Shown piece after piece: positions 547 to 16,038 of a stretch of DNA of 28,003 nt. The position numbers and the translations under genes were made by a program. The notes beneath the pieces are model-generated. The model had not been told where the DNA came from and did no database searches. It was given only the letters and a program-made list of their open reading frames with translations. Origin of the DNA: a virus (Duplodnaviria > Heunggongvirae > Uroviricota > Caudoviricetes); the IMG/VR virus record IMGVR_UViG_3300029068_000004, one strand, 5' to 3'. The first letter of the stretch is position 1, and every line of letters starts with the position of its first letter.

Positions 547-574
547 CAAAAAAACCCGCCTGAACCGGCGGGCT
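547..574 (-). terminator. Rho-independent terminator-like hairpin downstream of lom
   Basis: Minus strand reads CCCGCC-GGUUCA-GGCGGG followed by a run of 7 U; sits between the lom stop (601) and the stf start (536). Confidence 0.55.
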
Positions 575-600
575 GTCATAACACTGTGTTACCTGGCTAA

Positions 601-1200
601 TCAGAATTTATAACCGACACCCACGATGAAACCGTCAGTGCGCCAGTCACCACTGCCGGAACCTTCATAAGCAATATCAATGGCCACGGATTCGGTCGGG
701 TTAAACTGCACGCCAGCCCCCCACGCCAGAGACGTGTTGCTGTGGCGACCGTCATCACTTCCGGTCAGCACATCGTGCGTTTTCCCCTTGTTGTCAGTTA
801 CGCGGAGATAATCCCCGGAGAAAGTCGACACACGGCTGTAAGCCACACCCGCCATCGCATACGCGCTGAACCATTCATTCACGCGTACAGACGGCCCCGC
901 CATCACGCTGAACCAGCGGTTACGCACGGAATCTTCATGCCAGCGGGTATCGCTGTAATGCGTTTTTTGCTCATCTTTGGCATTGGCATAACTGAATGAC
1001 GTCACCAGCCCCAGCGTGTCCGTAAATTCATAACGGTATTTCACGTTAATCCCGTTCAGATTATCGCTGCCGGGTACGTTCGTACGGGCATGAAGATACC
1101 CTGCGCTCAGTGTGGACTGGTGTTCAGACGCCCATGCAGGCGTACCTGATACGGCCAGACAGATGGCTGCGGACAAAATGGCGGCATAAACTTTACGCAT
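601..1200 (-). CDS. lom: Lom outer-membrane protein (Ail/Lom family), virulence-associated moron
   Basis: 199-aa ORF with a signal peptide (MRKVYAAILSAAICLAVSGTPAWA) and a C-terminal ...GFIVGVGYKF beta-barrel motif; near-identical to lambda Lom from memory; located directly after J as in lambda. Confidence 0.9.
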   Translation of the reverse strand: MRKVYAAILSAAICLAVSGTPAWASEHQSTLSAGYLHARTNVPGSDNLNGINVKYRYEFTDTLGLVTSFSYANAKDEQKTHYSDTRWHEDSVRNRWFSVMAGPSVRVNEWFSAYAMAGVAYSRVSTFSGDYLRVTDNKGKTHDVLTGSDDGRHSNTSLAWGAGVQFNPTESVAIDIAYEGSGSGDWRTDGFIVGVGYKF

Positions 1201-1222
1201 AATTACCTCTCGCTTTTCTGCA

Positions 1223-1249
1223 ATAAAAAAGGCGCCATTTCTGGCGCCC
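1223..1249 (-). terminator. Rho-independent terminator-like hairpin between J and lom
   Basis: Minus strand GGCGCC-AGAAAU-GGCGCC followed by UUUUUUAUU; a GAGAGG Shine-Dalgarno for lom follows. Confidence 0.6.
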
Positions 1250-1267
1250 GTATCTGGGTTATAAAAT

Positions 1268-13940: not shown

Positions 13941-13950
13941 GTTTGAATGT

Positions 13951-15090
13951 TTAACCAAGAATCAGACAACCATGTGCCGGCTTCACTGATGAAACACCCC
14001 ATGCCAGTCCAACTTCATAGCGCACCTGGCGATACTGACGATACAGTGCAATCTGGAACGTAATCCCTGAAATCGGGTCCGTAACATTCATTACATCATC
14101 AGCATTATCGCCACCTTCCGGCATTGCCGGAGTACGGGATGCCAGCAGAAACGCGTTGCGATCAAACGCCATATTTGCAGTAAAGGAGCCAACAACTGTG
14201 ATTGCAGTATCATCGGCCAGATCCTGACGCAGTCCGGGCGCTGCAAGAGTAATCAGATTGCTGGTCGCTGCTGCCACAACATACTGATTCGGATCGCCAG
14301 CGAACGTAACAATCTGACCTGCAGAAATACTCCCCGAACCAGTATCAATGGAAATAAGAACATCGCCTTCTTTTTTCTCGCCATTCACGAGATAACCAGT
14401 TGCAGCAACCTTTGGCGCTCGTTTTACACCTGCCGAACTGTGAATATTGAATCCCTCCAGACGCCCCAACACGCCCTCACGCAGTAGCTGTTCAGTGCCG
14501 GATTCATTCACTTTAAACAGTACAGACTGTTTTCCGCGCAAATTAGCAATGGCAGTGGAGCCAAGCACCATCTGCAGATCGGTTGTCGGTGCGCCGTTAT
14601 CCTCCAGAACCTGACGAGCCAGAGCAGCATCAGAAAGATCATCTTTAACACCAAACGGCGTTGTCCCTGCGGTTCCCACGGCGCGGGAAGCACCGAAATA
14701 CAACGCACCAAGATCAGCCTCAACCTCGTTTGCAAGGGCGCGAAAAGCCTGCTTGAACTGATCAGCAAGAATGGTGTTGTAAGTCCCTGAAGGGCCAAGA
14801 GCCAGTTGTTCTTCACCATTCCATTTAACCGGTGCCATTTTGGATTTAGTAATTTTCACATCAACAGTGCCAATATTTTGATCACCGGTATTCGGAGCTG
14901 ACGGCCCCGGTACGATATCTTCGGTTTTCGCCTCAGGCGCAACTGGCGCGGTTACCGTCTGATCTTTTGCTGCGGCGTCAGCTTTTGCGTTTTTTGCTAC
15001 CGCAGGGATAAAACCTACCTGCTCACGGGATACAATATCCAGGGCGGTATAAATAGTCGGGATCAACCCGGTCAGGGTATTTCCAGCCAT
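13951..15090 (-). CDS. Major capsid protein
   Basis: Large ORF downstream of the scaffold gene; probable ATG at 15090 (MAGNTLTGLIPTIYTALDIV...) with an AAGGAA Shine-Dalgarno. The ORF-track start at 15183 is a TTG. Confidence 0.8.
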   Translation of the reverse strand: MAGNTLTGLIPTIYTALDIVSREQVGFIPAVAKNAKADAAAKDQTVTAPVAPEAKTEDIVPGPSAPNTGDQNIGTVDVKITKSKMAPVKWNGEEQLALGPSGTYNTILADQFKQAFRALANEVEADLGALYFGASRAVGTAGTTPFGVKDDLSDAALARQVLEDNGAPTTDLQMVLGSTAIANLRGKQSVLFKVNESGTEQLLREGVLGRLEGFNIHSSAGVKRAPKVAATGYLVNGEKKEGDVLISIDTGSGSISAGQIVTFAGDPNQYVVAAATSNLITLAAPGLRQDLADDTAITVVGSFTANMAFDRNAFLLASRTPAMPEGGDNADDVMNVTDPISGITFQIALYRQYRQVRYEVGLAWGVSSVKPAHGCLILG

Positions 15091-15188
15091 AATTAAATAT
15101 TCCTTAAAAATTTGCGTAATTGTGAATAGATGGAGTAATGAGCTATCCAGCCCTGACACCAGCTCCCATCCGGAAGCTGACAAATGTG

Positions 15189-15953
15189 TTAATCAACAAT
15201 TGTGATACCGTCTTTCAATGCGTTTTGCTTACCTGCAATATCCAGTGCATCAAAAGCAGAGCGTTTCATCGTTTTCTGACCAATATCATGCTGTGTCGGA
15301 CGGGAGCCGCCGCCATTGTTGCCACTGGCTTTCAGGATGTAGTCTTTCTGAGGGTAATTTTCGACGAGGAACTCCAGCGCCTCATCAAACTGCGCCAGTT
15401 CGCCAGGCTTCGCGCGGGAATAAATTTTGTTGCCGGAAGCGTCATAAGCAACGATCTTCCCTTCTTCCACTTTGAATGCCTGCCCGAAGCGGGCTTGTAA
15501 TAAATCTGCCGGGATCGCAATTTTATCGGCAATATATTTTGAACCCGCAAAACTACCGCCAATCATAGAATCGTAAAGCTGCGTCTCCAGCATCTGAGAG
15601 CGTTGCTTTTCTTCATCTAATTGCTGATGAAAATTTTTCGTAATTTCTGCCTTAACCTGGTCAACCTGTCCCGCATCGAGCAGCTTTTTCTGGTCGATTT
15701 TTGACAGCATTTCCAGTGCCTCGATCGCCTTCTTCGGGTCTTCGATAGCGGCAAACTTAGCCAGTTTTTCCTCTGCAGCTTCTTTAGCCAGGCGATGATT
15801 TTTTGCCTCGCCATTAAGCTCTGTAATTTTTTTTGTCGCCAGCGGTGCATCGAAGCCAATTTCTTTACCATCGTCGTGCACATAAACTGGCAGGCCAGCA
15901 GTATCAATTTCTGCGTATTGTTTTCCGTTAATCTCGACCGTTTTCAGTTTCAT
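15189..15953 (-). CDS. Capsid scaffolding protein
   Basis: ATG at 15953 (MKLKTVEINGKQYAEIDTAG...); highly charged, helical, coiled-coil-like sequence located between the head morphogenesis and capsid genes. Confidence 0.65.
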   Translation of the reverse strand: MKLKTVEINGKQYAEIDTAGLPVYVHDDGKEIGFDAPLATKKITELNGEAKNHRLAKEAAEEKLAKFAAIEDPKKAIEALEMLSKIDQKKLLDAGQVDQVKAEITKNFHQQLDEEKQRSQMLETQLYDSMIGGSFAGSKYIADKIAIPADLLQARFGQAFKVEEGKIVAYDASGNKIYSRAKPGELAQFDEALEFLVENYPQKDYILKASGNNGGGSRPTQHDIGQKTMKRSAFDALDIAGKQNALKDGITIVD

Positions 15954-16010
15954 ATTAGTACCTGGTTTAAGTCTTCCGACAGTTACGCTGCTCACCATCC
16001 GGATCGCAGC

Positions 16011-16038
16011 AATAAAAAAGGCCACCCGAAGGTAGCCT
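16011..16038 (-). terminator. Rho-independent terminator-like hairpin after the head morphogenesis gene
   Basis: Minus strand AGGCUACC-UUCG-GGUGGCCU (8 bp with one G-U) followed by UUUUUUAUU. Confidence 0.6.

What the first reader, a model, noticed from the sequence alone, without database searches (positions are those of the whole stretch)
547..16038. Late operon is punctuated by several intrinsic-terminator-like hairpins, several with UUCG/CGAA tetraloops
Hairpins followed by U-runs on the coding (minus) strand occur after the head morphogenesis gene (16011-16038), after the capsid gene (13921-13940), before the tape measure gene (10237-10260), after J (1223-1249) and after lom (547-574). 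In a Q-antiterminated operon these are read through during lytic growth. In a lysogen they insulate morons such as lom and may set relative expression levels, for example high capsid versus lower downstream genes.
Basis: seen in the sequence. Interest (0 to 1): 0.35.

Follow-up and report, generated by a model that had tools for sequence, protein, structure and literature searches.

The report
Terminator hairpins inside a prophage late operon
The late (virion and lysis) operon of this Rac-like lambdoid prophage carries at least eight evolutionarily maintained terminator-type RNA hairpins between its genes, which is real but is an ordinary, already described feature of lambdoid phages whose exact role is still unsettled.

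Summary
All five hairpins exist on the minus (coding) strand, each in an intergenic gap just after a stop codon. One coordinate range, for the hairpin before the tape-measure gene, is about 10 nt off.

- **Not chance:** a strict hairpin plus U-tail scan finds 8 sense-strand sites against 0.27 expected from shuffles. All 8 lie in the 5% of the window that is non-coding.
- **Strength:** three sites are canonical strong terminators (after the MuF-like gene, after J, after lom). Three are marginal (after the capsid gene, before the tape-measure gene, between I and J).
the I-J hairpin, and further sites after Q, after orf189 and after trkG.
- **Conservation:** relatives from many Enterobacterales genera keep a hairpin plus U-run at the same junctions, with compensatory changes or wholly different stems. 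Phage lambda has equivalents after E, I, J and lom.
- **Upstream context:** a Q-type antiterminator gene with a promoter-like site and a hairpin lies upstream, which fits a Q-dependent operon.

However, no lom promoter was found, and dosage control is untested. Published work already notes such intra-operon terminators and calls their roles unknown. Known kind, low to moderate interest.

The parts
543..574 (-). T5: hairpin AGCCCGCC-GGUUCA-GGCGGGUU (574-553) plus U-run. It lies between the lom stop (601) and the stf start (535).
   Evidence: dG -14.6, tail score 4.5. Conserved in about 80 lom loci, and lambda has a homologous site at 19612-19633.
1222..1249 (-). T4: hairpin GGGCGCCA-GAAA-UGGCGCCU (1249-1230) plus UUUUUAUU. 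It lies between the J stop (1268) and the lom start (1200).
   Evidence: dG -15.1, z -2.82. Compensatory changes CG<->UA and GC<->AU, and a loop inversion GAAA<->UUUC, in relatives.
4676..4706 (-). It lies between the I stop (4724) and the J start (4663).
   Evidence: extended fold -20.6 kcal/mol, z -3.49. The same element is present in lambda between I and J. Four phage records end their similarity to the window at 4724.
10226..10252 (-). T3: hairpin CCCAC-UUCG-GUGGG (10249-10236) plus CUUUUUGUUG. It lies at the 3' end of the 165-nt gap between gpT and the tape-measure gene H.
   Evidence: dG -7.2, so marginal. In 63 loci (23 distinct sequences, at least 9 unrelated stems), all have a hairpin plus U-run about 20 nt before the H Shine-Dalgarno sequence.
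10210..10374 (-). Gap between the G-T chaperone genes and the tape-measure gene: a moron slot. Here it is nearly empty, holding only a 29-codon ORF of doubtful reality.
   Evidence: Relatives carry Ail/Lom-like outer-membrane proteins, zinc-ribbon membrane proteins, other cargo or nothing. HK97 gene 15, the first-named moron, sits at this junction (PMC3594210).
13919..13940 (-). T2: hairpin GGGGC-UUCG-GCCCC (13940-13927) plus AUUUUUAA. It lies between the capsid stop (13951) and the orf58 start (13908).
   Evidence: dG -9.6. 116 of 120 relatives have a hairpin within 40 nt of the capsid stop. The core is nearly invariant at 69-100% capsid identity.
16011..16038 (-). T1: hairpin AGGCUACC-UUCG-GGUGGCCU (16038-16019) plus UUUUUAUU. 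It lies between the stop of the MuF-like gene (16058) and the scaffold start (15955).
   Evidence: dG -13.2, z -2.62. AU<->GC compensation in 6 of 13 sequences. 22 of 36 genome relatives have a positive-scoring hairpin with a U-rich tail, with differing stems.
22866..22897 (-). Hairpin CCCCAGUAGC-ACUG-GCUGCUGGGG after the trkG moron, with a poor U-run (UGCGUUUUAU).
   Evidence: -22.5 kcal/mol, z -4.30. trkG has low GC, 35-41%.
25958..25983 (-). Hairpin CCCCGG-CAUGUC-CCGGGG plus CUUUUUCG. It lies between orf189 and the holin gene.
   Evidence: dG -10.9, tail score 4.23.
26885..26919 (-). Candidate tR': hairpin CAGAACCCGCC-AUUGAG-CGGGUUUUG plus UUGUUUCU, 80 nt after the Q stop.
   Evidence: z -3.40.
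27000..27662 (-). Gene for a Q-type late antiterminator. A promoter-like site lies in its 3' end (27065-27036: TTGGCT, 18-nt spacer, TATATT).
   Evidence: Pfam PF06576/PF06530. PHROG 753 'anti-termination protein Q-like', E = 1.8e-79. Promoter-like match.
601..1200 (-). lom (Ail/Lom outer-membrane protein gene), bracketed by T4 and T5.
   Evidence: Pfam PF06316, E = 2e-125.

Best explanation
These are Rho-independent terminator elements embedded, in the sense orientation, in the roughly 26.5-kb late operon of a Rac-like lambdoid prophage. The operon is predicted to depend on Q antitermination.

**Proposed mechanism**
1. RNA polymerase that has not been modified by Q stops at these sites. Such polymerase includes leakage past tR', polymerase starting at moron promoters such as trkG, lom or cargo in the T-H slot, and spurious starts inside the prophage.
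2. This stop keeps virion genes silent in the lysogen and delimits moron transcripts.
3. After induction, Q-loaded polymerase starting at pR' reads through all of these sites.
4. Residual termination at the weak sites (after the capsid gene, before the tape-measure gene), and the stable 3' hairpins left on processed mRNA, may additionally lower the dose of downstream messages.

**Shown here**
- The hairpins are non-random, intergenic and on the sense strand.
- Pairing and the U-tract are maintained by selection across genera.
- The same junctions carry such elements in lambda.
- A Q homologue with a pR'/tR'-like arrangement lies upstream.

**Inferred, not shown**
- Actual termination at these sites.
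- Read-through by Q-modified polymerase.
- The biological purpose (insulation or dosage).
For: - **Non-randomness:** the strict scan finds 8 sense-strand sites against 0.27 +/- 0.48 in shuffles. All 8 are in the 5% of the window that is intergenic, P about 4e-11.
- **T1, T4, T5 are canonical:** 7-8 bp GC-rich stems (dG -13 to -15 kcal/mol) directly followed by runs of 5-7 U.
- **Covariation:** T1 plus its leader scores 0.311 against 0.192 +/- 0.014 in shuffles (0 of 500 reach it), with 7 pairs changed on both sides. T4 has CG<->UA and GC<->AU changes.
- **Stem turnover with the U-run kept:** T3 has at least 9 unrelated stems in 23 distinct sequences, all followed by U-rich runs. T1 is kept, with differing stems, in 22 of 36 genome relatives from genera including Citrobacter, Pectobacterium, Serratia, Photorhabdus and Providencia. 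T2 is present in 116 of 120 loci.
- **Lambda equivalents:** lambda has hairpins after E (C(UUCG)G), J and lom, and between I and J.
- **Q context:** a Q-like gene and a hairpin downstream of it.
- **Stem length:** all stems are short (5-10 bp). In another processive antitermination system, resistance to read-through required an unusually long stem (PMC10325885).
- **Literature:** intra-late-operon terminators are described in phage L and its relatives, with the same two hypotheses of partial termination or blocking non-antiterminated transcription (PMC8022706).
Against: - There is no transcript data for this element or close relatives. A look in E. coli K-12 Term-seq supplements for Rac genes found nothing.
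- T2, T3 and T6 are marginal terminators: 5-bp stems, a 1-nt spacer or an interrupted U-run. T3 has z = -0.98.
- Distant capsid relatives (46-53% identity) keep a hairpin after the capsid gene but have no U-run. That suggests the hairpin itself has value.
- No promoter for lom was found, so the moron-insulation role for T4 is unsupported.
- The hairpin after trkG has a poor U-run.
Confidence: 0.65

Rival explanations
1. The hairpins act mainly after transcription, as mRNA decay barriers. Q-modified polymerase transcribes through them. RNase E then cuts in the AU-rich tail, and the stable stem-loops (UNCG-capped in T1, T2, T3 and T6) block 3'-to-5' exonucleases. Upstream segments such as scaffold-capsid therefore outlive downstream ones, and this sets protein stoichiometry.
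For: - The T2 core GGGGC-UUCG-GCCCC is almost sequence-invariant across at least 15 genera, while the flanks are scrambled and the U-run varies (UUUCUUA, UUACUUGU, CUUUACC).
- Distant relatives keep a strong hairpin with no U-run.
- Lambda has a C(UUCG)G hairpin after E with a poor U-tail, UGUUUCUC.
- Hyperstable UNCG loops occur in 4 of the 6 structural-region hairpins.
- From general knowledge: 3' stem-loops stabilise upstream segments in the mal, puf and pap operons and in T7 RNase III products.
Against: - For T1, T3, T4 and T5 the U-run is conserved as strictly as the pairing while the stems turn over. That is the signature of termination, not of a mere exonuclease block.
- A T4 variant has its loop inverted to a non-special UUUC, so loop stability is not what selection acts on there.
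- From general knowledge (Sampson et al. 1988): relative lambda late-protein yields were attributed mainly to translation initiation.
Confidence: 0.2
2. The hairpin plus U-rich tract is a translational device for the next gene. The stem isolates the downstream ribosome-binding site from upstream structure and terminating ribosomes. The single-stranded U-rich tract serves as a landing pad for ribosomal protein S1.
For: In T2, T3, T5 and T6 the U-run ends 0-8 nt before a Shine-Dalgarno sequence (GGAGGG, GGAG, GGGGGG, GGAG), and in T4 about 12 nt before GAGAGG. This spacing is conserved in relatives.
Against: - The downstream genes (tape-measure gene, J, lom, orf58) encode low-copy products, so an enhancer is not obviously needed.
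- T1 lies about 55 nt upstream of the scaffold start codon, separated from it by a structured leader.
- Nothing in the data separates this from simple compactness of intergenic gaps.
Confidence: 0.08
3. The hairpins are passive baggage: terminators that arrived with morons, or scars at recombination junctions, with no function for the phage.
For: - T3, T4 and T5 flank moron-type genes or slots.
- Some similarity breakpoints fall near them: 4724, about 540-600, and about 10220-10400.
- Loop inversions in T4 and T5 suggest DNA-level palindrome dynamics.
Against: - Relatives with an empty T-H slot still carry the hairpin plus U-run (L067, L070).
- T1 and T2 flank core head genes, not morons.
- Compensatory substitutions and stem replacement with the position retained indicate selection.
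- Breakpoints are not concentrated at the hairpins overall.
Confidence: 0.05
4. They are chance inverted repeats next to T-runs.
For: With loose criteria the total count of terminator-like sites is no higher than in shuffles: 19 against 16.8.
Against: - The strict scan gives 8 sites against 0.27 expected.
- All 8 are intergenic and on the sense strand.
- They are conserved with covariation.
Confidence: 0.01

Closest known systems
Hairpins in the phage lambda late operon after E, between I and J, after J and after lom
   Same: Same junctions and same design. Lambda has AUGGCCC-UUCG-GGGCCAU 2 nt after the E stop, CGUCCG-GGAA-CGGGCG plus UUUUAUUA after J, and AGCCCGCCGG-AACC-GGUGGGCU plus UUUUUG after lom. 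It also has AAACCGCC-UGCG-GGCGGUUUUGUC between I and J. T5 and T6 are sequence homologues of the lambda elements, while lambda's post-J hairpin occupies the T4 junction with a different stem. Lambda is the paradigm of Q read-through.
   Different: The head module here is unrelated to lambda's: P22-type coat protein, DUF6651 scaffold, MuF-like protein. T1 and T2 are therefore analogues, not homologues. Lambda has no T-H gap, since T and H overlap. These lambda hairpins are not annotated in the RefSeq record.
Intra-late-operon terminator after the procapsid module of P22-like phage L (PMC8022706)
   Same: It is a predicted Rho-independent terminator inside a single-promoter, antiterminated late operon, at the end of the coat-gene module. 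[quoted passage not shown]
   Different: Phage L is a podovirus with a different set of junctions. That paper made no comparative or covariation analysis.
HK97 gene 15 moron (promoter, gene, terminator cassette between the tail chaperone and tape-measure genes)
   Same: T3 closes the same genomic slot. Relatives of this prophage carry varied cargo there, each followed by a hairpin plus U-run (PMC3594210).
   Different: In this window the slot is almost empty (165 nt, no credible gene, no promoter-like site of at least 9 of 12 matches). Cargo-less relatives still keep the terminator.
Lambda pR' / 6S RNA / tR' module
   Same: A Q-type gene is followed by a promoter-like site in its 3' end and a hairpin plus U-rich tail about 135 nt downstream.
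   Different: This Q belongs to the DUF1133/PHROG 753 type, not the lambda Q type. No Q-binding element or pause site was identified.
T7 T-phi terminator after the major capsid gene 10 (from general knowledge)
   Same: It is an incompletely efficient terminator placed right after the most abundantly needed structural gene, with downstream genes expressed by read-through.
   Different: It acts on T7 RNA polymerase and involves no antitermination factor.

Membership tests
Rho-independent (intrinsic) terminator | GC-rich stem of at least 5 bp with a 3-8 nt loop | tested here: met
   All eight strict-scan sites qualify. Hairpin dG ranges from -7.2 to -15.1 kcal/mol.
Rho-independent (intrinsic) terminator | U-tract directly abutting the 3' arm (strong sites T1, T4, T5) | tested here: met
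   Runs of 5-7 U start at the stem end, with tail scores of 4.3-4.5.
Rho-independent (intrinsic) terminator | U-tract directly abutting the 3' arm (T2, T3, T6) | tested here: inconclusive
   T2 has AUUUUUAA and T3 has CUUUUUG, each with a 1-nt spacer. T6 has UUUUGUCGUUU.
Rho-independent (intrinsic) terminator | Sense orientation, downstream of a stop codon, in non-coding sequence | tested here: met
   all 8 sites lie in intergenic gaps.
Rho-independent (intrinsic) terminator | Pairing and U-tract maintained in evolution | tested here: met
Rho-independent (intrinsic) terminator | Transcript 3' ends in the U-tract, or termination in vitro | not testable with these tools
   No transcript data are available. 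K-12 Term-seq supplements had no entries for Rac genes.
Q-antiterminated lambdoid late operon | Q-family antiterminator gene immediately upstream, co-oriented | tested here: met
   Gene at 27000-27662. PF06576 E = 5e-109, PF06530 E = 4.5e-6. PHROG 753 E = 1.8e-79.
Q-antiterminated lambdoid late operon | Constitutive promoter with Q-binding and pause elements, and a terminator (tR') just downstream | tested here: inconclusive
   A promoter-like site matching 9 of 12 consensus positions lies at 27065-27036, and a hairpin at 26919-26894. No Q-binding or pause site was identified.
Q-antiterminated lambdoid late operon | Lysis and morphogenesis genes in one uninterrupted co-oriented array | tested here: met
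   Holin, endolysin, Rz, terminase, portal, head and tail genes through stf are all on the minus strand.
Q-antiterminated lambdoid late operon | Q-dependent read-through of the internal terminators | not testable with these tools
   Needs transcription assays.
Moron (independent promoter, gene, terminator insert) | Content varies or is absent at the same position in related phages | tested here: met
   The T-H slot holds Lom/Ail-like proteins, zinc-ribbon membrane proteins, other cargo or nothing. trkG and orf189 have low GC.
Moron (independent promoter, gene, terminator insert) | Own promoter (tested for lom and for the T-H slot) | tested here: not met
   There is no site with at least 9 of 12 consensus matches. 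The best are 8 of 12, located 300 nt upstream of lom and in the T-H gap. The lom promoter is also uncharacterised in lambda (PMC2147009).
Moron (independent promoter, gene, terminator insert) | Own terminator | tested here: met
   T5 follows lom, and T3 closes the T-H slot.
mRNA 3' stabiliser stem-loops | Longer half-life of the segment upstream of the hairpin, with processed 3' ends at the hairpin base | not testable with these tools
   Only indirect support: the hairpin after the capsid gene is conserved where the U-run is not.

The most novel reading that the evidence does not exclude
The 14-nt C(UUCG)G hairpin right after the capsid gene (T2) is not primarily a terminator. Instead it is a dedicated post-transcriptional element that fixes the 3' end or stability of the scaffold-capsid message, or is recognised specifically.

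Two observations leave this open. Its core is nearly invariant across at least 15 Enterobacterales genera while its flanks are scrambled. And it is mirrored by an analogous hairpin after the unrelated capsid gene E of lambda. If so, it would give tailed phages a general RNA-level way to set the capsid-to-other-protein ratio.
Probability: 0.2. Interest if true: 0.45.

Novelty: new member of a known kind. Interest (0 to 1): 0.25.

Why it matters
Internal terminators make late-gene expression strictly dependent on the Q antiterminator, and they define which prophage genes (morons) a lysogen can express. They therefore bear on prophage silencing, lysogenic conversion and phage engineering.

The phenomenon is already described, and its role is openly called unknown in the literature (PMC8022706). 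This locus adds well-conserved, covarying examples and a clear experimental handle: three strong and three weak sites at defined junctions. It does not add a new principle.

Tried and rejected
- **Chance:** rejected by the strict scan against shuffles and by intergenic placement.
- **Known structured RNA families:** an Rfam scan at E <= 1 gave only one spurious eukaryotic lncRNA hit, and there are no tRNA genes.
- **A promoter for lom, in the T-H gap or in the T1-scaffold leader:** nothing reached 9 of 12 consensus matches.
- **Hairpins as mosaic breakpoints:** BLAST segment ends against 160 relatives cluster only weakly near T3, T5 and T6, and not at T1, T2 or T4. Not pursued further.
- **A small gene in the T-H gap:** a 29-codon ORF (VMVSLIKS...YYYVA) ends just before T3. 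It has no Shine-Dalgarno sequence, and it is seen only in near-identical relatives, which gives no test of coding.
- **Experimental 3' ends:** E. coli K-12 Term-seq supplements had no entries for lomR, stfR or trkG. The lambda ribosome-profiling paper was not available. Literature searches for 3'-end maps of lambdoid late operons found none.
- **Plus-strand terminator-like hits at 20729-20796:** these are the antisense of a repeated AQK-coding motif in the small-terminase gene, not terminators.

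
Full report
**What the window is**

All relevant genes are on the minus strand. In order of transcription:

| Feature | Coordinates |
|---|---|
| Q-type antiterminator | 27000-27662 |
| Low-GC orf189 | 26209-26778 |
| Holin, endolysin, Rz | 24579-25870 |
| trkG, low-GC potassium transporter gene | 22984-24459 |
| ParB-like protein and TET-associated glycosyltransferase | 21130-22846 |
| Small and large terminase | 18563-20939 |
| Portal | 17154-18560 |
| MuF-like head protein | 16058-17173 |
| DUF6651 scaffold (real start at 15955) | 15189-15955 |
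| P22-type coat protein | 13951-15183 |
| orf58, head-tail connectors, tail tube | 11191-13908 |
| G and its -1 frameshift extension T (T ends about 10375) | 10375-11142 |
| Tape-measure gene H | 6976-10209 |
| M, L, K, I | 4724-6983 |
| J | 1268-4663 |
| lom | 601-1200 |
| Start of stf | 535 |

The best phage match, a prophage-derived record, carries trkG on the late-gene side and uspF, ompN and the sit operon on the other side. From general knowledge of the E. coli map, that neighbourhood marks this as an intact Rac-type lambdoid prophage. The capsid is 100% identical in Escherichia ruysiae and 99% identical in Shigella flexneri genomes.

- T1, T2 and T3 have C(UUCG)G tetraloops. T4 has GAAA. 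T5 has a hexaloop.
There the hairpin is 10249-10236 and the U-run 10234-10230, not 10237-10260.
- In about 50-nt windows the folds are -13.8 (T1), -12.2 (T2), -9.1 (T3), -15.7 (T4) and -16.9 (T5) kcal/mol. T3 alone is not better than shuffles (z = -0.98).

**It is more than chance**

- With a stricter definition (simple hairpin <= -7 kcal/mol, d'Aubenton-Carafa-type T-tail score >= 3.8), the minus strand has 8 sites against 0.27 +/- 0.48 in 60 dinucleotide shuffles.
- All 8 lie in the 5.0% of the window that is intergenic (P about 4e-11). They occupy 8 of the 11 gaps of at least 40 nt.
- The three additional strict sites are between I and J (4702-4689, UCCG loop), after orf189 (25983-25966) and after Q (26915-26898).
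- A fourth strong stem follows trkG (22897-22874) but has a poor U-run.
- By strength, T1, T4 and T5 are canonical. T2, T3 and T6 are marginal: 5-bp stems, with a 1-nt spacer or an interrupted U-run.

**Comparative evidence**

I fetched 160 related loci from viral contigs and 44 from one-genome-per-species contigs.

- **T1 (after the MuF-like gene):**
  - In 13 distinct homologous sequences the stem shows AU<->GC compensation in six, and one complete replacement of the stem by GGGGGUCAC-UUCG-GUGACC.
  - The covariation score exceeds all 500 shuffles and all slid controls.
  - In 22 of 36 genome relatives a positive-scoring hairpin with a U-rich tail follows the gene, with differing stems such as GGUCGC/GCGGCC, CCACC/GGUGG, CCUGC/GCAGG and GACUCC/GGGGUC. 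These come from genera including Citrobacter, Pectobacterium, Pantoea, Tatumella, Serratia, Rahnella, Photorhabdus and Providencia.
- **T2 (after the capsid gene):**
  - 116 of 120 loci have a simple hairpin within 40 nt of the capsid stop.
  - At 69-100% capsid identity the core GGGGC-UUCG-GCCCC is almost invariant, although the flanking spacer is scrambled. Variants keep pairing (GGGGA...UCCCC, G:U pairs).
  - The tail is U-rich but irregular.
  - Relatives at 46-53% identity (Janthinobacterium, Duganella, sphingomonads) have other GC-rich hairpins without U-runs.
- **T3 (before the tape-measure gene):** 63 loci give 23 distinct sequences with at least nine unrelated stems. Every one is followed by a U-rich run about 20 nt before the tape-measure Shine-Dalgarno sequence.
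- **T4 (after J):** shows CG<->UA and GC<->AU compensation. One variant has the loop inverted from GAAA to UUUC.
- **T5 and T6:** conserved with few changes, and present in lambda.
- **Phage lambda:** its head genes are unrelated to those here, yet it has a C(UUCG)G hairpin 2 nt after the capsid gene E. It also has hairpins after J and after lom.

Stem turnover with the position and the U-run retained is the evolutionary signature expected of intrinsic terminators.

**The T-H junction is a moron slot**

- In relatives the space between the chaperone frameshift product and the tape-measure gene holds an Ail/Lom-like outer-membrane protein, zinc-ribbon membrane proteins, other small proteins or nothing. 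It always ends in the hairpin plus U-run.
- This is the position of HK97 gene 15, for which the word moron was coined (PMC3594210).
- Here the slot is 165 nt with no credible gene.
- Cargo-less relatives keep the terminator. That argues it serves the phage and is not mere baggage.

**Mechanism**

- The upstream Q-type gene, a promoter-like site in its 3' end, and a hairpin about 135 nt further on resemble lambda's pR', 6S RNA and tR'.
- I therefore favour the standard reading. Unmodified polymerase terminates at these sites, which gives silencing and insulation in the lysogen. Q-modified polymerase reads through.
- All stems are short. In another processive antitermination system, only an unusually long stem resisted read-through (PMC10325885).
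- These steps are inferred. No transcript data exist for this element.
T4 leaves about 30 nt before the lom ATG, and no sigma-70-like site was found within 400 nt upstream. The lom promoter is also uncharacterised in lambda (PMC2147009).
- The dosage idea rests on the two weakest terminators.
- For T2 a decay-barrier role is a serious rival, because the hairpin is conserved more strictly than its U-run.

**Relation to what is known**

- Casjens and colleagues describe a predicted terminator after the procapsid module inside the single-promoter late operon of phage L. [quoted passage not shown] They offer the same two hypotheses: partial termination, or stopping transcription that lacks antitermination (PMC8022706).
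- T5 and T6 are sequence homologues of elements in lambda itself. Lambda's hairpin after J sits at the same junction as T4 but has a different stem.
- The finding is thus a new set of members of a known kind, documented here with unusually clear comparative support.

**Verdict**

- Novelty is low. Interest is 0.25.
- The one feature worth a specialist's second look is the near-invariant C(UUCG)G hairpin after the capsid gene, together with its analogue in lambda.

Noticed in passing
window 15956-16012 (minus strand): The roughly 60-nt leader between T1 and the scaffold start codon is conserved and structured. A helix GCUGC...GCAGC covaries with GCCGC...GCGGU (UA<->CG in 6 of 13 sequences). An inner 2-bp helix and a downstream GUC/GAC helix also vary compensatorily. 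This could be a translational control element for the scaffold gene; from general knowledge, P22 scaffold synthesis is autoregulated post-transcriptionally.
   Followed up: partly
window 1230-1249 and 553-574; L162 (lambda) 19612-19633: The loops of T4 and T5 occur in both orientations among relatives: GAAA against UUUC in T4, and GGUUCA here against GGAACC in lambda for T5. The stem arms stay the same, as expected from inversion of a DNA palindrome. This shows that loop identity is not what selection maintains there.
   Followed up: partly
window 10210-10374; loci L050, L058, L030, L046, L068, L072, L074, L081, L075: The slot between the tail-chaperone gene T and the tape-measure gene carries different cargo in relatives. 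Examples are a second Ail/Lom-like outer-membrane protein of 178-185 aa, 120-187-aa membrane or zinc-ribbon proteins, or nothing. In this window only a doubtful 29-codon ORF is present.
   Followed up: partly
window 20729-20796: There is a cluster of TGCGCA(G/A)A repeats that scores as plus-strand 'terminators'. It is actually the antisense of a repeated AQK/AQT peptide motif near the N-terminus of the small-terminase ORF (19845-20939). It might also be a DNA-binding or pac-related repeat.
   Followed up: partly
window 21130-22846: A ParB-N-domain protein (22055-22846) and a TET-associated glycosyltransferase family protein (21130-22083) sit between trkG and the terminase genes. This may be a DNA-modification module inside the late operon.
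   Followed up: no
window 22984-24459 and 26209-26778: trkG (35-41% GC) and orf189 (38-40% GC; PHROG 11870, unknown function) are low-GC inserts in the late operon. Each is followed by a hairpin, and several promoter-like sites lie upstream of trkG (24459-24588).
   Followed up: partly
window 8527-8553 (plus strand): A strong terminator-like hairpin with a 7-T run lies antisense inside the tape-measure gene (dG -11.9, tail score 5.3). It could stop antisense transcription.
   Followed up: no
window 16058-17173; phage hits H2-H9: Homologues of the MuF-like head protein are annotated in several phage records as 'NAD+--asparagine ADP-ribosyltransferase'. That hints at a MuF-toxin fusion in this family. 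It was not examined here.
   Followed up: no
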